Shown here piece after piece: positions 12,393 to 48,600 of a stretch of DNA of 64,000 nucleotides. The notes under the pieces are model-generated. The model saw only the letters and a list, made by a program, of their open reading frames with translations. It ran no database searches and was not told the origin of the DNA. The DNA is from the human T2T-CHM13v2.0 reference genome, Homo sapiens. The first letter of the stretch is position 1. The number at the start of each line of letters is the position of its first letter. The stretch lies in the NCBI RefSeq assembly GCF_009914755.1, contig NC_060928.1; one strand, 5' to 3'. A program made the translations under genes and the position numbers.

Positions 12393-12532
12393 CTGAGTGA
12401 GGATAGTGGTGGTTCCATCTGTAGCCTCGACTGTGAGGTTGTAGTTTGACTTCTGTTCTGCATCAAGAGGTTTGGCAACAATGATGGTTCCAGTTCCCTT
12501 GTCCACATCGAAGTGACTGTCGTAGTTGCCAC
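12393..12532 (-). CDS. FAT1: FAT1 exon 7 (140 bp)
   Basis: Acceptor ccccaaattag|GTGGC and donor CAG|gtaagt. Translates (G)[46 protein letters not shown]. Confidence 0.97.
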
Positions 12533-14346
12533 CTAATTTGGGGAAAAAAAAGTAAAAACAGGTCACAGGATAACACTCTGTAGTTTATTCTGTGGCTTTC
12601 TCATACTTAATGGCACTGAAAAATCTTCTAATATACTAGCAAAGAGCTTCCAAGGAGGAGCATTTTGAAAGAAAAGAGTGGCCAATTAGAAAGACAATGC
12701 TTGTTAAGGCAAAGTGAACCCTAATTGTCCAGGAAGCAACTAACTGAAAGAAAGCAAGAAAGCAACTCTGAAAACAAAGACATTGCTAATATTGCCAATG
12801 AGTTACTTTCAATTTGCTTTTTCAGGGGTTCTGAATTCCTCTTCAATTTGTATCTCAGTAGATACCATCACTGGGCCATTTAAAAGCTTACTTACTAACA
12901 AAACTTTCTGATACTTTGAGCAAATTGACCTAATAAAATAGCTATTAAAAATCAATGTTAACTCTAAAAAAAATAGCGGTCGTTAACTTTAATTAGTCCT
13001 GGCTACTATAAACTATTTGAAAAGAATTTTTTTTCTCATTTTTGACAAACACAAAGCCTAATGAAACAAAAGTTTCTATCCTATTAATATTATCCAAATA
13101 TTTTTGATAAAACTCTCTTTTCAAATCCATCGACCTAGATATAAAATGAAATGGGATGAAAATAGAGGTTTAATGTCATGATGAAATTCTACTACTAAAT
13201 CTAACCAAGAAACAAAACAACACACACGACGTCTTAAGAGAAACCTAAAACCACGGAGCTAGGTGAGCATTACGTGGCAACACGCTGGCGAGTGGGATGG
13301 GTGACCATGCGCACACTATGAAAAAAAAAACAGCGATGGAAGATAGTCACTGGAAATAAAAAAGTAAAAAAAAACAAAAACAAAACAAGGCTTTTATTTT
13401 AGATCTCATAATCTGAGGCAAATTATGTGATCTCAGCAGATACCTTCTGCTGTACAGGTCGGGTCACAAGTCATCTGAAAGATGTAAAAAACTTCTCTAG
13501 CAAGCGTGTCTCCTGGCACAGCCAAAAAGAAGCAAGCGCGCATGGAAAGCAAGCACAGAATAAAAGCAATCAATCAAACCAGGTCCAAGCACAGCAAGGT
13601 TACACAGCGAGGTCAGGTACTGCACAGCAGCAGCCTGTTGATCTGGAAATGTGATAAAAGTTAACAGAAAGCAAACAAACGGTTTTGAGCATCGTTAACT
13701 ACGAAAATAGTCTCTTTTTCCCCTTCCCTTGAAAGTATGCTGTAAGGGTTTCACAGGTGCTGATGACATCAATTTCACACAATCACCAAATTGGTAAAAC
13801 AGCCAAAGCATTTAGCATGAAAGTTCCAAAGGTAAGGCCTGGCCTGGCCTGACATGCCCAGTGGTCTGGGTCCATCAGCTGCAACTTTTGGGGGCTTCGG
13901 GTTAGCATGACTAAGGGGCAGAAGGGGAAAAATGGACATAAAGTCCCCCCCAGAGAGATGAATCGCAACAGAGACTCTTGTTCTTAAATACCCTTGTAAC
14001 TAAAATGTGAGGAAACAATAAAAAAAAATCTAAGATGCAAACTCTAATGTGAAATTTAAAAAATACGTTGAATAGGGTATTACATTCAATGTCTTATCTA
14101 AACTACATGACAAATAAGAAGAAGAAATGGCTTTAGCAAGTAAACTTTACTGGAGGATGAAATAATCTAATGAATCCTCCTACCTGTTGAAAATGAGGTA
14201 ATATAAAACTAAAAACCCATAGCTGGTACCATAACTTTGTACCATAAGCTGGTATGAATCAAAATTTGTAAGCTTATTCCCTATTAAATATTGACATGTG
14301 ACAGTCACACAGGCATAGTTACTTTAAATGTTCCAATCATATTCAC

Positions 14347-14418
14347 TAAAAATAACAATGTGCCATAGGTTATGCATCAATAAAAATAACAATGTGCCAT
14401 AGGTTATGCATCAATAAA
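14347..14418. repeat. Perfect 34-bp tandem duplication
   Basis: taaaaataacaatgtgccataggttatgcatcaa at 14347 and 14381. Confidence 0.95.
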
Positions 14419-14733
14419 TAAACAGTAAGAAGCTGTGCTTCTGGACCAAAACATTCAAGGCTTTTGTCTGTAACTCTTTGACAAACTTTTACAAAATTTT
14501 ATTTTTATATCAATAACTTGGTAGAATAGAGCACCTATTTTAAGCAAGTTTAACATATGCTATATATTGTGAAAAATTTTGCAATCAAAATATTATAGTT
14601 GAAAGCAAATTCTCCACCTGTCGATCTTATTCCCAATTTTAAATCCTGACTTGTGCCCAAAACTCATCAAACCGTATGCAGGTTCTCCTCAGTGTAACCC
14701 ATACGGACAACGAAAATGAGGGGGAATGCTTAC

Positions 14734-14944
14734 CAGTGATGTCAAACCAAAGGGGTATGCCAGGAGGCTCCACAGATATTACTCCAATCATGTGAGCAAC
14801 GGGGTCACTTTCCATCACAGTAAAGGTAAAAAATGATTCTTCAAATGAAATGGGCTCCAGGGACGGTTTGGGCTTGGAGATCCATTCAATATGGAGTCTG
14901 GTGGTTGATGACTTTTGAGGGCGACCATTGTCAACTGCCTTAAT
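14734..14944 (-). CDS. FAT1: FAT1 exon 6 (211 bp); absent from the ORF track
   Basis: Acceptor tgttgtag|ATTAAG and donor CTG|gtaagc. Translates [70 protein letters not shown](G); phases fit exons 5 and 7. Confidence 0.96.
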
Positions 14945-29890: not shown

Positions 29891-32288
29891 GCACCATGAG
29901 CTACAGAAATAACAGACTGTAACTGTGGAACTCCAGATAGCACCTGACTGTCCCTTTGTAAACATGTCATCCATGGAACATTCTAGTCTACGGATCTGTA
30001 CCCAACCAGCTTAAATAAAATGAAACGGCCCCAGAACAAAGCTGTGTATGTGACTTAGAGATCATGGCACAGTCCTGAGAGCTGTACAATGGGTGGACAG
30101 AAGGCGCAAGTGAGCGGGAGTGACAGAAACTACATCAAGGGCAGCATTTGTCTGTGTGAACTGCTATGCCTCCTCTTCCAATGGGTGAAAGGGAAAATCC
30201 TTCAAATGTGGCTGCTTTTAAAAATCTTTCATGAGTATCACGCCTGGTTCTGTGGTGGATACAATAATGAATGAAGGTGGTCCTGGCCCATAAGGACCTG
30301 AGCCAACACTGGATCCCCCCGAAACACACACCAGAGCCAACACTGAACATGCAGAGCCGACAAGCCGACTAGTCCACCGGCAGGGAGGCGTCACGTCCTC
30401 CGCTTCTGCAAAACACAGATTGCCTTGCTGGCCACGAGCAAACACGCAGCTTCTCCTTCACTTTATCACTCAGCACCCAGCCCCTCAGAGCTCTGGACTG
30501 TGAGCTCGGAGATCTCCGCAGCACCGCACCGTCTTTACTCAGGTGGTGTCCTAAGACCACACGTCACTACAGCCGGCTGCGCGCTCTTTCGGCAGCTGTG
30601 GCCGTCTCAGCAGCTATTGTTTGTCCCTGAAGTACTGGTGCCGGCAGGATTAGGCGTGGAGCCAAAAATGGAATTCTATTCATAGACTGGCGAGGCTGGA
30701 AAGCAGCTCAGAACTCATTTAGTTCAAACTTTCAGAGTTCCAAAGAAAACACTAATAAAATGGATCAAACGACTAGTCTAAAGTCACATGGGGAGTCATA
30801 CAGGGACCCCATACCCTAGTCTTCAGACGTCTCTTCTGCTTTCAATTCTACCTTACTAGCTGTTTCTTGTTGAAAATTGATGGCATTAAAACATAAGATC
30901 GACAGCAAAACTCAATTTACAGGGAATTGCCTTCAGTGATCCTATAAATGTCAGATATAGCAGGGTCAGAAGAAGAGGATAGGGTACACAACCCATTTTA
31001 TAAGGTTAACATCATGTTGACATAAAAAGACTAATCTCAGGCACCCAAATGCAAAATCTTAACTATAATTTTAGCAAATAATATTCAGCAGCTATAGAAA
31101 AACCAAATGCTGACAGAATTTATCACAAAGATTCAAGTTAACCAATTTGCGGAGGAAAAAGTTTGTCATCATCAACATCGGCAGAAATGTACTGAATAAC
31201 ATTTGACTTCTTGCAAACTTTAGGGATGATATACTTCACTTATTTTATAAAATAATAATGAGCATGAGAAAGAGATAGGAAAAAAATCTACAGATTCCTC
31301 CTTAAAATATCTGCGTATCTTGGTAAAAAGACTGCAAATAGGTAATTTTTTTTTAAATGAATTCCTGCCATTGAAATGCGACTGGCCCGTCCTTTCCTTC
31401 CTTTGCAGCTATCAAATGTTACCGGAAACCCCTGGAAGTTGTTTGCAGCTTTAGCTATTTCCTATTGCAGTTTGTTCAGTATTCGTTCCAGCCACAATAA
31501 AATGCCATTTACTCTGGTTCAGAAAAAAATAGTTGTAAAGTGTTACTGGACTAACACATGATGAGCACCCAGTATACCTACCAGCTATTCTACCATTTTG
31601 TAACTTTACTGCGTGCTTTAGGGATTACCACACATAAACTATACATCGCTGCCCAGTCTGCAATCACAAATCACATTTCCTATAGTAAACATAAAATAAT
31701 TCTATACTAAATACAGGATTTTACATGTAAAGAAGCGAATAAAAAACAGAACACTGTATAACGCCGTCCTCTAAAAAGCATATGAAATGGAAACTGAGTA
31801 ATTTGAGTATAACATGTCGACACAGAATAAGAGAATAAACAAAATGGGGGAGATGATAAAGACCTGCTAAGTATACTTAGAGCCAACTGTTTGAGCTGAA
31901 ATTGGGAGCTCTGAAAACTTAACAGGACACATCAACACAGAAAAAGTAGGAAAACCTCAAAATCTAGGAAAATTTATCTTCTAATGAGAAACAATTACTT
32001 CCCAATGTAGAAGAGATCTAACAGTCTACTAACCAACTTGCAAAATCGTATCTGAGATCTCAACCTTGATACTGATACTCTAATTGCTCTATTTAAAGAA
32101 TAATTTTGTTATTAACAACCAAGAGAAGTGAAATACAAACATCCTTTCTAAGCACTCTTGCTTAGAGCAACGGGAGGGATTCAATTTTTACTTCAGAAAT
32201 ATAAAAGTCTATCCCTTCAAAATAATTTTAAAAATCAGCAATCAACGAAATTGTTTAACTAGTCCCACCAGTAAATACGTCCACTCAT

Positions 32289-36380: not shown

Positions 36381-37685
36381 AAATAAAGATCAATACTTGG
36401 TTTGTAGCAAAAACGTGAAAAATATCAAACATACAGATAAGAGAGCAAGACCATGGTCTCTTCTAAAGGACACACATGTCTAAAAGTAACACTTCAAAAT
36501 TATTAATAAATGCCAATTGTAAGTTGCATATCAACTCCCCCAAGTTCAAAGCAATAACTTTAACTAAAAAGACTCTTTGCAAGGGTGGTGTCGATTTCCC
36601 GAGGTTGTTCGTGAATAATGAGTCATGAGAAGCTCACACTAGTCTCTTTTGTTTGGGACTCCCTTTCTTCTCTGTCCTTGACACACCACAAAGCTGTGAT
36701 GCTTTTGTTTGCAGGCGCTGCAGCTGCCAAGGCTCCAATCTGAGTTCTATGCTCCTGTCTCTCTTCCACCTTGAGCAAGTGCTCAACTTAAGTTAAAAGA
36801 AGCACATTTACCCTGTAACTGATGATGGACACAGTCAAACAAAAAATGTTATAAAAATTAGCAATGTCAACAAAAGTGCATATATCACAAAAAGAGAATG
36901 GATGCGGTCTTTCACTTGTATCTCCTAAAAATGAAAACCCACTGCCCCCCTACTTGCAAACAATATAATAAGAATGTCTGAAATGCAGACAGACAGTTCT
37001 TGGCACCATAATTAAGCACAAAAACCTTGAAGAGAAAAAACATTCAAAAAAGTTCACTCAAACTTGTTGTTTAGAACACAAAATTCATAAGCTCACTCAC
37101 TAAACCCACTCCTAGAAAGCTTTCTTGTTGTGACTTTTAAAATATTTTGTTACACTATGACAAAAGGGGAAGGAGAAAAAGATATTGAGGAGATGTCTCC
37201 CTCTTTTCCAAAAAGACTTTTATTTAAGTTTATCCAAAATGTTGCAAGGCAGTTTATACTGACTCAAAAAGAGGTCACTTTTATTAATAAAAATAACAAA
37301 TATTCTCTTTAACCCTTATTCTGGCATTCGAGGTTTTCCACTGAGGGTAGCCGTCTCCCATACACTTATTTCTTGGTCTCCAACTCACCATTCCTTCAAA
37401 TTGTCGCCGACATGAAAACATCTCCTACCTCCTCTCCATCAATCTATTGTTACCATCTTCACAATCAGCCCAGTACCCGTTCCAAGGGGCTCATCTTCCC
37501 AACATAACCACTGCCAGTTTCCCACTTCCACCGGACCCGTGAGGGCCCCTGCCACGCCTCCACCGGACCCGTGAGAGCCTGTGCCACACTGCTGCACACA
37601 TCTGTTCTTCTTGGTTATTTCACTTTTGTAGATGACGAACTTTCAAAGATTTGGTAAAAAAATTTCATAGTTCGGTAAATAAACA

Positions 37686-38034
37686 CGGCCACGCACTGCA
37701 TAACGACGTGTCAGTTAACCACGGGCTGCATATACGATCGAACCGCACATACGACCGTGGTTGTGAAAGATTAATACCACATTTTTACTGCACCTTTTCT
37801 ACATTTAGCTATGTTTGGATACACAAATGTGTTACAACTGCCTGCAGTGTTCGGTACAGGATCACGGCATACAGGTCTATAGACTAGAATAGACCATCCC
37901 ATACAGCCTGGGTGTGTAGTAGGCTAGACCATCTAGGTTTGGGTAAGTACACTCTACGTTGTCCACACAACGACAAAATCGCCTGATGACACGTTTCTCA
38001 AAATGCATCCCTGGCATTCAGCCTCCCATGACTG
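37686..38034 (+). mobile_element. Tigger3a-like (TcMar-Tigger) non-autonomous element
   Basis: Starts c-ggccacgcactgcataacgacg, has internal accatctaggtttgggtaagtacactcta, ends catgactg followed by TA; about 350 bp. Confidence 0.82.
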
Positions 38035-38263: not shown

Positions 38264-38680
38264 GGCTGTGGCACCTGTCCCCTGAACGACGCTGGGCGCT
38301 CCTGCACTCTACACACACAAGCCCGCTGTGGCACTTGTCCCCTGAACAACCCTGGGCGCTCCTGCACTCTACACACACAAGCCGGCTGTGGCACCTGTCC
38401 CCTGAACGACGCTGGGCGCTCCTGCACTCTACACACACAAGCCGGCTGTGGCACCTGTCCCCTGAACAACCCTGGGTGCTCCTGCACTTTACACACACAA
38501 TCCGGCTGTGGCACCTGTCCCCTGAACGACCCTGGGTGCTCCTGCACTCTACACACACAAGCCGGCTGTGGCACCTGTCCCCTGAACGACCCTGGGTGCT
38601 CCTGCACTCTACACACACAAGCCGGCTGTGGCACCTGTCCCCTGAACGATGCTGGGCGCTCCTGCACTCTACACACACGA
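38264..38680. repeat. Minisatellite, 7 copies of a 60-bp unit
   Basis: Unit gccggctgtggcacctgtcccctgaacgaccctgggtgctcctgcactctacacacacaa; its 60-bp period explains the three overlapping repetitive ORFs. Confidence 0.97.
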
Positions 38681-39809
38681 GCCTCAACAGGGGACAGAAA
38701 CACCATGAATCACAAAATCGAAGGACCTGGAAGTCAGTTCGCCCCAAGATCCCAGAGGGAAGGCCTCACTATGGTCCGGATCTCTGGATTTCCAGCCCAG
38801 TGATTTCCTTGCTCAGCCGTTAATCATTAAGTAACACGATTTAGGGTCTCCAGGTGGCGAGATGGGTCAGTGACTCCCAAGCACTATTTCCTACCGGACG
38901 GACTTTCATCAGCCTTCACAATCAGGCCGCCATGATACTGACCTACCTGGGAACAGTCTGCTTTAAAGGTTGTAAGAAGACGAGGCATGTGTACTTCAGG
39001 CCCTGAGGATCACACCCCAACTTTCTGCTGAGGTGGGGGAAGAGAAGCATCTAGAAACAGATCTAATGAAGCTATATTTACTATATTATTTAATAATTCC
39101 ATGCTAAAATACTGTTCTTCATCTTCAGAGACTTTAGGTGATCTGTGGAATGTTGAGACTTCTTTACTAACCACAGAGTTTTTAACATACTTCACAACAA
39201 ATACTGCTGTGTACTAACTATGGTATCCTCCACTATTACCTGACTTCAACTCATAAGGAAAGAAAGCCTCTGTGTGCATTGCACTGAATTTCCTCCTGCC
39301 GCCCTGCCAGCGGAGTGCCTGTGCTCCCGCCGGGGCTGGGGTGTGGCTGTGGACACCTGGAGAGGGTTTATTCCTTCTGAAGACAACAGCACAGACATCT
39401 CTGCAAACACCTTTTCTTTAGAGTTGTCAGAATAGAGAGATTTAAAAGGGAGAGGCAATGCCATATTAATCATGTTTCTACAACAAGACATAACACCATA
39501 GCAGACACATCATCATTTCTGGGGTCCCAGGAAGAACCAAGGGTTTTCAAGGCTCCCCACAGCAATGCTAAGCTATATAATCTCCTCAGTTTCTTTCTCC
39601 TCCTACTCCTCAAACATATATTATGCCCAGACCTATGCCATGTGCTCAGATATCCCAAAGGATATTTCTTGCTTGCTCATCTATCTCTTCACAGAGGACT
39701 TACTCTAATCTAAAAGAGAGACAGAAGACACAAGAAAATTGAAAACACTGCTTAGTCTAATTCATCAAACAAATTACTATAGGGGTAGTTCTGGTCTTGA
39801 ATTGCCACC

Positions 39810-45620: not shown

Positions 45621-48600
45621 CTTCAGCGCCAGCAATATCCTTGTCAGTCCTACGGCTGTTATGACAAAAGAGTAAACAAAACTTAATGTGGTAATTTGGG
45701 AAAGATGAGTCAAACTTCCTATTTCATCCACCTGTTCTACATGTCAGTATTCAGCAGGAATGTATTAAATGTTCACTCATACACAATAGCTTTCTCTAAT
45801 CTCAAGGGAAAAAAGAATTATGAAATGGAAGTATATCACCCTCACATCTGAGGTTTGCAATTACAGATAGAAACAGCTATGATTTTTCCGTCGTGCCTTA
45901 TTTCTAGTTCGGGCCGTAAGCGTCCAGACTGCAGTGTGCAATTCTGAGATGGCATCTGCTGGTCCCCACCGACCCATCAGCTGTACAACCAGGGGGTGGG
46001 GGACAGTCATGTCCATCAGGAGGGGATTGTCAGCCTCCCCGGTAATCTACGGATATTACTAAAGGTTAAGACTGAGGCAACAAAGCGACTCTATTCAAAT
46101 ATCGGAGATTGTGTAATTCGCAATTAAAATAGTAAGTATGAATGAGTGAGATGCTGGATGTTCCTATTTCATGAATTCATGACTGTGTACTTTTATAATG
46201 CCTATCGTGATTGCTGAGATAAGCTTCTGCTTCGATGCATTTTAATTATTACCTCTTTGTAAGATAAAAAATCACTGAATACAACTTACGGAGAACTATA
46301 AAGTAAATTTCAACTGCCAAAGGGAGAGGAGGGCACACCGAAGAATCTTATCTTCTAACCAAAATCCTCAGATCCCTCATGTCCACCAATCACGTCACTA
46401 GATGCTTTATGTGCATTAAATCATTGAAAGAACATGGAAGTTGCATGATTTTCATCCCAGCTTTACACATGAGGAAAGAGAAGCTTAGATCCATTAAGAA
46501 ACTTGCTTAAGCCCTGGAGTGATGAGGAAACAAGGCCAGGGTCAACAGCTAACTGGTGGGATCCGGAGCTGAGCCGGACAGTCTGACTCCAGGCCTCAGG
46601 GTCTTCTCCACTGAGCGGTGGGCTGTTGCCACTATCAATCAACAGCAACACTGTCGGACACCAAAGGTGCTGGGGACCTGGTGGGGCTATAACCATGAGG
46701 AAAGGCCACAAGGAGTTTCCCAGTGTGGAAGGAAGGGTCTTCCTCATGCATGCAGGACAACAGACGGGAGACGATCTGAGGATTCCGCTCAGAGTTTTGG
46801 GGTTCAGTACCTAGGCGCTATTATAGGCACTGCACAAAGTGGGTGGAAGGAAGCCTTAAGCGTGCCAAGTTATTTTGTTTTCCGCTTTTTAATCTGTCAG
46901 CCCAGTTGCATGATACACTCCTCAAGAACCCTGGGCAGAAACTTCCAAAGTGGACCTATGGCACTAGCCCGAGATCTCTAGGTCAAAACCCCGAAGCTTC
47001 CCATCTTGAATCAGAGGCAAGACGAAGGTCCAGGATGGCTGAGTGAGAGTCTAGATAATGTGCAAAGAAAGACCAGGGGTAGAGCTAGCCTTCGCCATCT
47101 CAAAATCAAGCATTAGACTGGGAACGCCTTCAAAACCCTCCAGTGCAACTCCCTTGTTCTTAAAGAACGTTGAAATGATTTGTCCAACTCCAAGAAGCTA
47201 AACAGGTGTAGTTCAGAATCCAGAGTGAAGGACTTCCTTAATCAGGGGTTCATCACGATCCAAACCATTCTTTAAGGGAGTCCTGGTTTCTGCAGGGAGT
47301 GACACACCAGCTGTCTCCAAGTATGACCGAAGCTGCCTTTACTCATTAAGTCATTAGCAGTTCTTGTTCCTACACTTCATCATGCTTTCACCAGTCCTTC
47401 CTAAAGCCACGACTGGCATTTACAGATTACAGATTGATTTCTTCTGTAACTTTAGCAGTTACCTCAATTCCATAGAGAGAAACAAATTTTCACATTTCCA
47501 TTGGGAAGACTTCTAATTAGTGCCTTTAACACAGAGAAAAACAAAAATAAAACTAAAGACATCCAGTCATCACTGGATGTGAATCAAACTGTGGTCACTC
47601 TCAAACCTCTATCCCTGTCTATTTCTCTTTATCCATGAATGTCTACCTATCAACTTTCAATAAGTACTTTTTTATATAGTGGGTTATAAACTCACCCTGG
47701 AGACAAAAGGAACCAACAAAAACTATAGTTTTTACAGGTATCTTTCTATTTACACATATTCACGACCTCACCTTTTTGGGCACCTATGTATATCCACCCC
47801 CAAACTCTTCTCTGCGGTCTCCCTCCTGTCTTCGGCATCTCCTCCCCTCTGCGCTCCCCTCCTTCTACCTTTCTGAAAGCAAACACAGCATGCGGCCAGA
47901 AGGTGCCTGCGCCCAGGCTGTGAGGAGGGAGGGCTGCAGCCCAGGCCTTCCGCAGGATTCCCTCCAGCCAGATGCCGGGAGCAACAGAGCCGTGAGAGGG
48001 GTGACAGGGAAACTCTGTCGCCACTCCCGTCAGGAGGTTGCCGTGCACACGCAGTGAGAGCGGTCGTGATGCTGCTGCGTGATGCTATGACGCAGATTTG
48101 GAGCACAGGAGACAGGTTGAGACACGCTTGTTACGTGTGCCACTCAGCAGTGCCATCAGAAATCACGGCTTTACCTGAATGAAGCATTACGGAAGGAATG
48201 AAAGCCTAGCTTTCCAACCTCGAGAATACAGTGAAGTTGTTAATAACCTGAAAAATCCGAAAGAAGCCGGAAATTTGGAGTTATTAAGTAAGAATATTTA
48301 TCATTCCAAACATACTCTCCAGGATTTCAAAACCACCACCAGATGTCACTATGGAAACTCACTTTAAATATGCATCCAGTGGAGAACGAGACTGAAGGGG
48401 GAAAAATGTAATTTCTAAAAGAGCTTAACCAAGATAGTTGAAAATAGAGCTCACAGCAAAATTTCTGTATGGAAGGATTCATTAATGTCCACTTACTTAA
48501 CTAAACGGATACTGACGTTGTCTTTCCACAGCCTGATTATTCAAAGGTTATAGGGTTGCTCCAATAAACGGTTCAAAAGTAAATCACAGTTTCCAATAAT

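What the first reader, a model, noticed from the sequence alone, without database searches (positions are those of the whole stretch)
13420..13700. Candidate poison exon in FAT1 intron 6 with a dense upstream YGCY (MBNL-type) cluster
Seen: the minus strand reads ...gtttttacatctttcag|ATGACTTGTGACCCGACCTGTACAGCAGAAG|gtatct, a 31-nt segment (13474-13444) with a pyrimidine-rich acceptor and an AG|gta donor. Spliced after exon 6 (phase 1) it reads ...IT-D-D-L-stop. The ~200 nt upstream (13500-13695) hold about 15 YGCY motifs by hand count, against roughly 3 expected at uniform composition; two more follow the donor. The patch does not look like a transposon. Established: MBNL1/2 bind YGCY clusters and usually repress exons when bound upstream, and premature stops far from the last junction trigger NMD. 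Inference: an MBNL-controlled AS-NMD switch that tunes FAT1 dose and could open in MBNL-low states such as embryonic cells or myotonic dystrophy.
Basis: partly seen in the sequence, partly recalled or inferred. Interest (0 to 1): 0.8.

Follow-up and report, generated by a model that had tools for sequence, protein, structure and literature searches.

The report
YGCY-rich patch beside FAT1 pseudo-exon
FAT1 intron 6 really holds an unusually dense run of MBNL-type YGCY motifs, but the 31-base "poison exon" beside it is no better than about 150 other chance splice-site pairs nearby, and nothing shows it is ever used.

Summary
The sequence observation holds. On the minus strand a 31-nt segment (13474-13444) lies between ...tttcag and gtatct. 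After exon 6 (phase 1) it reads D-D-L-stop. Fifteen YGCY motifs start in 13695-13500.

The two halves differ in weight. The YGCY patch is a strong outlier:
- It is the densest 196-nt stretch in the window and in the whole 139-kb FAT1 pre-mRNA (15 against a mean of 2.3).
- Nothing matches it in 400 kb of random genome strand.
- It is strand-specific, single-copy and not a tandem repeat.

The "exon" is ordinary. In the window, 155 other AG...GT pairs match the splice consensus at least as well, and 148 of all 158 pairs would also be "poison" in phase 1. Its donor lacks +4A and +5G, and it is only 31 nt long.

No paper in the searchable library links FAT1 to a poison exon. The known MBNL-dependent FAT1 exon is the 36-nt penultimate exon, which lies elsewhere.

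Junction reads, CLIP data and conservation could not be examined here. My best reading is a predicted MBNL-binding patch next to silent pseudo-exons. A regulated AS-NMD switch remains possible, at about 15%.

The parts
13499..13691 (-). YGCY (mostly UGCU) cluster: 15 motifs, 11 paired YGCY-N5-20-YGCY starts; predicted MBNL-binding patch in FAT1 intron 6
   Evidence: It is the densest cluster in the window, in the whole FAT1 pre-mRNA and in 400 kb of random strand. There are 0 YGCY on the opposite strand. 15 of 20 GC dinucleotides are flanked by pyrimidines, against 28.5% window-wide.
13499..13555 (-). Core of the patch: three YGCTTGCT octamers (first bases 13555, 13538, 13506), 17 and 32 nt apart
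   Evidence: GCTTGC occurs 3 times here out of 9 on the minus strand of the whole window, and CGCTTGC 2 of 2.
13444..13474 (-).
   Evidence: The acceptor has 12 of 17 pyrimidines at -20..-4 and C at -3. After exon 6 it reads D-D-L-stop. It is one of 155 comparable pairs.
13438..13446 (-). Candidate donor AAG|GTATCT, 5 of 7 variable consensus positions, lacking +4A and +5G
   Evidence: The real donors in the window score 4 to 7 of 7.
13444..13512 (-). Nested 69-nt alternative using the same donor and an acceptor at 13512; open and in frame in phase 1 (would insert 23 residues)
   Evidence: searches (pair list; open frame 13433-13573) and my own reading.
13444..13642 (-). Nested 199-nt alternative using the same donor and the acceptor ...ttccag at 13642. 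It has a yUnAy-type branch-point candidate at -19, and the YGCY patch would then be exonic. It shifts the frame, with a stop at 13499-13497.
   Evidence: pair list; frame 13497-13694. The branch-point consensus is recalled, not computed.
14734..14944 (-). FAT1 exon 6 (annotated), ends in phase 1; its donor is 1043 nt upstream of the patch
   Evidence: Hub annotation.
12393..12532 (-). FAT1 exon 7 (annotated); its acceptor is 967 nt downstream of the patch
   Evidence: Hub annotation.

Best explanation
The real feature is the YGCY patch, not the exon. It is a single-copy, strand-specific stretch of about 190 nt of pyrimidine-flanked GC dinucleotides, mostly UGCU and including three YGCUUGCU. 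It lies in the middle of FAT1 intron 6 and is the best predicted MBNL1/2 binding platform anywhere in the FAT1 pre-mRNA.

I infer that MBNL proteins occupy it wherever they and FAT1 are co-expressed. The 31-nt segment after it, together with two nested versions of 69 and 199 nt that share its weak donor, are ordinary intronic pseudo-exons that are not spliced in at meaningful levels. If the patch has any effect, it is to add to their silencing by covering the acceptor regions. It is not a dose-tuning switch.

Shown here: the motif density, its specificity, its single-copy status and the chance-level quality of the exon. Inferred: MBNL binding, and silence of the exon.
For: Patch density:
- 15 YGCY per 196 nt against a mean of 2.3 (sd 1.75) in the window. 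It is the only locus with 12 or more on either strand.
- It is the maximum over the 138,878-nt FAT1 pre-mRNA. The five other clusters of 10 or more lie in sequence with GC 0.55-0.75, whereas this one has GC 0.42.
- None reaches 15 in 400,000 strand-bases of arbitrary genome, where the maximum is 13.

Patch specificity:
- Paired YGCY-N5-20-YGCY, the MBNL term used in PMC12721327 (passage), starts 11 times here. The mean is 0.4 and the next best place in the window has 5.
- 15 of 20 GC dinucleotides are in Y_Y context, against 28.5% window-wide. The binomial P is 9e-4 given 62% pyrimidines.
- There are 0 YGCY on the other strand.
- MBNL prefers YGCY, most of all UGCU, and clustering matters (review PMC13044900, passages).

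Not a repeat or a known RNA:
- Self-match only in the genome, with a positive control giving 8668 candidates.
- No tandem repeat and no Rfam family.

Exon ordinary:
- 155 equal-or-better pairs; 148 of 158 pairs are 'poison' in phase 1.
- The donor lacks +4A and +5G.
- It is absent from the selected RefSeq transcript (hub table).
- No paper links FAT1 with a poison exon.
Against: - Dinucleotide shuffles of the patch already average 9.9 YGCY, and 29 of 5000 reach 15. Part of the signal is therefore composition.
- The patch is of lowish complexity: 10th-12th percentile for k-mer entropy, and 8% of windows have as many repeated 6-mers. A slippage origin without any selected role is possible.
- No binding data were available, so MBNL occupancy is inference only.
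- The candidate's splice-site matches fall inside the range of the 7 real exons in the window. Donors score 4-7 of 7 with the candidate at 5. Acceptor pyrimidines score 7-17 of 17 with the candidate at 12. Use of the exon therefore cannot be excluded from sequence.
- The consensus-match count is crude. MaxEntScan and SpliceAI were not available.
- The other three RefSeq FAT1 transcripts and the GENCODE models were not visible to me.
Confidence: 0.45

Rival explanations
1. The 31-nt segment, or one of its nested versions, is a genuine poison exon that MBNL represses through the upstream YGCY patch. In MBNL-low states it is included, the stop triggers NMD, and FAT1 output falls.
For: - The patch ends 25 nt before the acceptor. 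That is inside the +/-250-nt zone in which upstream or exonic MBNL motifs go with repression (PMC12721327, passages).
- The stop is the fourth codon after exon 6. By the hub's 27-exon model about 20 junctions follow, so the 50-55-nt NMD rule (established knowledge) would apply.
- Only 4.9% of positions have a qualifying acceptor within 30 nt downstream.
- Three nested acceptors share one donor.
- FAT1 is a proven MBNL splicing target at another exon.
Against: - Pseudo-exons of this quality are common (155 in the window), and 94% of pairs would be 'poison'.
- The patch is pyrimidine-rich (62%). That composition tends to create acceptor-like tracts by itself, so adjacency is not independent evidence.
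- Exons as short as 31 nt are poorly defined without strong sites (recalled knowledge). The donor pairs with U1 over only about 5 contiguous positions (my reading).
- There is no well-placed branch-point consensus for the 13474 acceptor (my reading).
- No annotated exon is in the selected RefSeq transcript and nothing is in print.
Confidence: 0.15
2. Neutral sequence. The patch is a decayed product of local slippage or duplication of GCT/TGC-type words ('cryptic simplicity'). It has no consequential protein binding, and the AG...GT segment is a chance pseudo-exon.
For: - k-mer entropy is in the lowest 10-12% of windows, and there are 29 repeated 6-mers against a median of 9.
- Enrichment concentrates in a few related words: GCT, TGC, GCTT, GCTTGC, CTGTGC.
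- Dinucleotide shuffles keep two thirds of the motif count.
- RNA folding is unremarkable: z = -0.55, and 62 of 200 shuffles fold as well.
- CpG observed/expected is 0.48, only the 83rd percentile.
- Extrapolated from my sample (none in 400 kb of strand; an inference, not a count), the genome could still hold thousands of patches of this density.
Against: - TRF finds no array even at score 30.
- About 10% of windows are as simple, yet none has more than 7 YGCY in the non-overlapping count.
- The pyrimidine context of GC is biased beyond composition (P = 9e-4).
- MBNL binding in cells follows motif density (recalled knowledge; clustering noted in PMC13044900). A patch like this in an abundant pre-mRNA would be hard for the protein to ignore.
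Confidence: 0.3
3. Another function. One option is a UGC-dependent enhancer of a neural microexon-like 31-nt exon, of the SRRM4/nSR100 type. Another is a platform for a different RNA-binding protein that affects removal of intron 6. A third is a DNA-level regulatory element on either strand.
For: - Every UGCU or UGCC contains UGC, and UGC motifs close to the acceptor mark SRRM4-dependent microexons (recalled, not tested).
- The hub table lists a RefSeq enhancer about 1 kb away (14618-14787).
Against: - The patch spreads over 190 nt rather than the short zone next to the acceptor.
- 31 nt is above the usual microexon size (recalled).
- No RefSeq functional element covers 13400-13700 (hub table).
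- The motif is strictly strand-specific on the transcribed strand, which favours an RNA-level reading.
Confidence: 0.1

Closest known systems
MBNL-regulated cassette exons with flanking YGCY clusters (for example the 36-nt penultimate FAT1 exon, 'FAT1+12')
   Same: Same gene and same motif class. MBNL motifs lie within 250 nt of a short AG...GT segment. Upstream or exonic position goes with repression in the RNA maps (PMC12721327, passages; PMC3158048, passage).
   Different: The known FAT1 exon is in frame, coding, annotated in the literature and activated by MBNL. It lies about 44 kb away at the 3' end of the gene. The intron 6 segment has no expression evidence, would be repressed rather than activated, and carries about twice the motif density of the probable +12 exon flank (15 against 7 per about 200 nt). 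My placement of the +12 exon was chosen partly by its motifs, so that comparison is not independent.
Poison (NMD-targeting) cassette exons
   Same: Flanked by AG and GT, with a stop four codons in and far upstream of the last junction.
   Different: Recognised poison exons are defined by observed inclusion that rises on NMD block, and many are highly conserved (recalled). Neither could be tested here. By sequence alone this one cannot be told apart from 155 pseudo-exons in the same window.
Intronic pseudo-exons
   Same: Consensus-like sites, no annotation, short length, weak donor, and frequency of about 2.5 per kb.
   Different: It sits directly behind the strongest YGCY cluster of the gene, which an average pseudo-exon does not.

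Membership tests
MBNL-regulated exon | Cluster of YGCY motifs within about 250 nt of the exon | tested here: met
   15 YGCY in 13695-13500, ending 25 nt before the acceptor. Densest in the window, the gene and the random sample.
MBNL-regulated exon | Paired motifs YGCY-N5-20-YGCY (term used in PMC12721327) | tested here: met
   11 starts per 196 nt against a mean of 0.4. The next best place in the window has 5.
MBNL-regulated exon | MBNL1/2 bound in vivo (CLIP) | not testable with these tools
   No CLIP data held. The literature searches gave only the 36-nt exon.
MBNL-regulated exon | Inclusion changes when MBNL is depleted | not testable with these tools
   No RNA-seq or junction data held. 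Supplementary tables of the MBNL papers were not opened.
Poison exon (AS-NMD) | Usable 3' and 5' splice sites | tested here: inconclusive
   The acceptor (12 of 17 pyrimidines) and the donor (5 of 7) fall within the range of the 7 real exons, but 155 other pairs do as well. No MaxEntScan or SpliceAI available.
Poison exon (AS-NMD) | Premature stop more than 50-55 nt upstream of the last exon junction | tested here: met
   GAT GAC TTG TGA after exon 6. Exons 7-27 follow by the hub's table. The property is generic, since 148 of 158 pairs share it.
Poison exon (AS-NMD) | Observed inclusion, increased when NMD is blocked | not testable with these tools
   Not in the selected RefSeq transcript (hub). 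0 papers for FAT1 + 'poison exon'. 4 papers for FAT1 + UPF1 + NMD + alternative splicing; by title and abstract they are reviews or mutation-centred (listing only).
Poison exon (AS-NMD) | Conservation of the splice sites and the exon in other mammals | not testable with these tools
   Apart from the window's own genome, the collections hold prokaryotic, viral, plasmid and E. coli sequence only.
Interspersed or tandem repeat | Further copies in the genome, or head-to-tail units | tested here: not met
   Self-match only for 13400-13760 and for the whole of intron 6. A control repeat gave 8668 candidates. TRF found nothing in the patch. Very old repeats below about 70% identity could escape.
Structured non-coding RNA | Match to a curated family, or unusually stable fold | tested here: not met
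   Rfam gave one chance-level hit elsewhere in the intron (E = 0.76). Fold z = -0.55.

The most novel reading that the evidence does not exclude
The YGCY patch is an MBNL-operated gate over a nest of three cryptic exons (31, 69 and 199 nt) that share the donor at 13444. When MBNL is sequestered or low, as in myotonic dystrophy, embryonic cells or reprogrammed cells, the frame-breaking versions enter the mRNA and FAT1 is lowered by NMD. That would tie a 4q35 gene discussed in FSHD-like muscle phenotypes to the MBNL axis.
Probability: 0.12. Interest if true: 0.6.

Novelty: new member of a known kind. Interest (0 to 1): 0.3.

Why it matters
FAT1 dose matters for muscle shape, kidney and eye development and tumour suppression, and FAT1 is already an MBNL splicing target at its cytoplasmic 36-nt exon. 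A second MBNL-dependent control point that destroys the message would be a plausible route to reduced FAT1 in myotonic dystrophy. It would also be a handle for antisense up-regulation.

As it stands, the value of the finding is narrower. It marks the strongest predicted MBNL site of the FAT1 pre-mRNA, which a look at existing CLIP and junction data can check cheaply. It also shows that the 'poison exon' argument from sequence alone has almost no discriminating power.

Tried and rejected
- Tandem repeat: TRF at minimum score 30 found only the A-rich run at 13354-13388 and (GGCCT)3 at 13836-13851, and nothing in the patch.
- Short direct and inverted repeats: only 11-14-nt two-copy chance-size matches. 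One is a 14-nt, 86% complementary pair between 13633-13620 and the 3' end of the 31-nt segment. I did not pursue it because the fold of 13700-13420 is unremarkable (z = -0.55).
- Rfam: no family.
- Coding reading: stop-to-stop frames of 30 aa or more across 13300-13850 are all short, 30-80 aa. None was searched further.
- CpG retention as a proxy for constraint: o/e 0.48, 83rd percentile, not informative.
- Dispersed repeat: rejected.
- Literature:
  - FAT1 + 'poison exon': 0 papers.
  - FAT1 + 'cryptic exon': 10 papers. Of the three I opened by passages, the hits concern CHD7, FAT10 and structural variants.
  - FAT1 + MBNL1 + alternative splicing: 19 papers. The three I opened by passages concern the cytoplasmic 36-nt exon (PMC12721327, PMC3158048) or an unspecified skipped Fat1 exon (PMC4403257).
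  - A 19-nt string of the candidate exon: 0 papers.
  - MBNL + 'poison exon' + YGCY: 0 papers.
- Comparison with the equivalent intron of paralogues, and with orthologues in other vertebrates, was not possible.
- Supplementary tables of the MBNL and NMD papers were not opened and may list FAT1 events that I did not see.

Full report
**1. What is there.** Read on the minus strand, the transcribed strand of FAT1, the window shows ...gttttttacatctttcag, then 31 nt at 13474-13444, then gtatct (length confirmed). Exon 6 (14944-14734) is open in frame 0 and ends ...ATC ACT G, and exon 7 begins GT GGC. A script finds exactly 15 YGCY motifs whose first base lies in 13695-13500: 11 TGCT, 3 CGCT and 1 TGCC. 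Two more follow the donor.

**2. Is the motif cluster more than chance?** Yes, on several counts.
- In 196-nt sliding windows on the minus strand of the 64-kb window, YGCY has mean 2.3, sd 1.75 and maximum 15. This is the only place with 12 or more on either strand, and the plus-strand maximum is 11. Among 326 non-overlapping windows the runner-up has 7.
- I fetched the rest of the gene. Over the whole 138,878-nt pre-mRNA the maximum is again this locus. The five other clusters of 10 or more sit in sequence with GC 0.55-0.75, while this one has GC 0.42.
- In 20 arbitrary 10-kb pieces of the same genome, both strands (400,000 strand-bases), the sliding maximum is 13 and nothing reaches 15.
- With the paired term YGCY-N5-20-YGCY, used for MBNL in PMC12721327 (passage), the patch has 11 starts. 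The mean is 0.4 and the next best place in the window has 5.

The signal is specific in context and in strand.
- 15 of the 20 GC dinucleotides are flanked by pyrimidines on both sides, against 28.5% in the window. The binomial P is 9e-4 given 62% pyrimidines.
- There are no RGCR motifs, and no YGCY on the opposite strand.
- The enriched words are GCT, TGC, TGCT, GCTT, GCTTGC (3 of the 9 in the window) and CTGTGC.

Two cautions apply. Dinucleotide-preserving shuffles of the patch already average 9.9 motifs, and 29 of 5000 reach 15. The patch is also of lowish complexity, at the 10th-12th percentile of k-mer entropy.

**3. What the patch is not.**
- It is not a tandem array.
- It is not a member of a dispersed repeat family. 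The patch and the whole 2.2-kb intron match only themselves in the genome, while a masked repeat from the window used as control gave 8668 candidates.
- It is not an Rfam family.
- It is not unusually structured as RNA: z = -0.55, and 62 of 200 shuffles fold as well.
- It is not a long open frame.
- It is not CpG-preserved beyond the 83rd percentile.

**4. Is the exon more than chance?** No. I scored acceptors by three criteria: pyrimidines at -20..-4, a pyrimidine at -3, and no AG in -15..-3. I scored donors by matches to the seven variable positions of the recalled consensus MAG|GTRAGT.
- The candidate scores 12 of 17 and 5 of 7. The seven complete real exons of the window score 7-17 and 4-7.
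- On the minus strand, 237 acceptors and 169 donors do at least as well as the candidate. They form 158 pairs 20-300 nt apart, and 155 of these lie outside real exons. 23 of the 155 are 60 nt or shorter.
- 148 of the 158 pairs would give a stop or a frameshift in phase 1, so 'poison' is the default outcome.
- A qualifying acceptor lies within 30 nt downstream of 4.9% of positions, and within 250 nt of 30%. Because the patch is 62% pyrimidine, acceptor-like tracts in and after it are expected.
- The donor AAG|GTATCT lacks +4A and +5G. By my reading, the only yUnAy-type branch candidate for the 13474 acceptor has its A at -11, which is unusually close (consensus and usual distances recalled). 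Internal exons of about 31 nt are poorly defined (recalled).

The scan also showed that the same donor pairs with two further acceptors.
- 13512 gives a 69-nt segment that is open and in frame in phase 1.
- 13642 gives a 199-nt segment with a better acceptor, having a branch candidate at -19 and a long pyrimidine tract. It would make the YGCY patch exonic and end in a stop.

These nested options do not raise the odds much. Any experimental test should look for all three.

**5. Context in the gene and in print.** The patch lies 1043 nt from the exon 6 donor and 967 nt from the exon 7 acceptor. That is outside the +/-250-nt zone in which MBNL motifs are mapped to act on an exon (PMC12721327, passages), so direct control of the flanking constitutive exons is unlikely.

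The known MBNL-dependent FAT1 event is the 36-nt penultimate exon, which is activated by RBPMS, RBFOX2, MBNL1/2 and QK (PMC12721327, passages). It is listed as FAT1+12 in the EMT programme (PMC3158048, passage). Fat1 exon skipping in reprogramming is reported without naming the exon (PMC4403257, passages).

I located a probable human copy of that exon about 1.1 kb upstream of the last exon (L002 7134-7099, minus strand). Within 200 nt downstream it has 7 YGCY, 2 GCATG and 2 ACTAA. I chose it among 5 candidates partly by those motifs, so it is only a rough yardstick. By that yardstick the intron 6 patch has about twice the density.

Searches of the library's main texts found nothing on an intron 6 event:
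- FAT1 + 'poison exon': 0 papers.
- FAT1 + 'cryptic exon': 10 papers; the three I opened were irrelevant.
- FAT1 + MBNL + CLIP + intron: 4 papers, listing only apart from those cited above.
- FAT1 + UPF1 + NMD + alternative splicing: 4 papers, listing only.
- MBNL + 'poison exon' + YGCY: 0 papers.
- A 19-nt string of the exon: 0 papers.

The MBNL review PMC13044900 does not mention FAT1. It confirms the YGCY/UGCU preference and the role of motif clustering (passages). Supplementary tables were not opened.

**6. Most likely mechanism.** I commit to the following at 0.45. The patch is a real, strong, predicted MBNL1/2 binding platform on the FAT1 pre-mRNA. The adjoining AG...GT segments are pseudo-exons that stay silent. 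MBNL occupancy, if it matters at all, reinforces that silence by covering the acceptor regions. This is the position-dependent repression known for MBNL.

The rivals are:
- neutral cryptic simplicity with no consequential binding (0.30);
- other functions, such as UGC/SRRM4-type control, another RNA-binding protein or a DNA element (0.10).

Shown: the sequence, phase, stop, motif density and specificity, single-copy status and pseudo-exon background. Inferred: binding, silence of the exon and any effect.

**7. What could not be done.** I could not examine conservation in other vertebrates, junction reads, CLIP, SpliceAI/MaxEntScan scores, the three other RefSeq models or the GENCODE models.

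**8. Verdict.** The interpretation cannot be decided here and rests mostly on the weaker half of the observation. If real, it would be a new member of a known kind (an MBNL-repressed poison or cryptic exon). As it stands it is a well-defined candidate MBNL site that is cheap to test. Interest 0.3.

Noticed in passing
L002 7099-7134 (minus strand; window coordinates about -30901..-30866): Probable human copy of the 36-nt penultimate FAT1 exon ('FAT1+12'). It is an AG|36 nt|GT segment about 1.1 kb upstream of the last exon. TGCATG starts 10 nt after the donor, and within 200 nt downstream there are 2 GCATG, 2 ACTAA and 7 YGCY. This fits its reported activation by RBFOX2, QK and MBNL. The identification is inferred from position and motifs only.
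   Followed up: partly
window 38264-38683: Minisatellite in a FAT1 intron: 7.0 copies of a 60-nt GC-rich unit, 94% matches (TRF score 742). It showed up as the densest CTG patch on the plus strand.
   Followed up: partly
window 13349-13390 (minus strand): A long T-run ending in ...tttatttccag gives a further strong acceptor-like site about 95 nt downstream of the candidate donor. No good donor follows it by eye.
   Followed up: no
window 12533-14733: The whole 2.2-kb intron 6 matches only itself in the genome, so it holds no detectable young repeat insertion.
   Followed up: yes
window 13444-13457 and 13620-13633: A 14-nt, 86% complementary inverted repeat could pair the CUG-rich start of the patch with the 3' end of the 31-nt segment next to its donor. 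The overall fold is not more stable than shuffles, so it is probably chance.
   Followed up: partly
window 30300-30600, 37450-37750, 47800-48100: Local CpG-rich stretches (16-19 CpG per 300 nt) inside FAT1 introns. Their nature was not examined.
   Followed up: no
window 12700-12870 (minus strand): Weak Rfam hit to ST7-OT4_2 (21.2 bits against a gathering score of 55, E = 0.76). Taken as chance.
   Followed up: no
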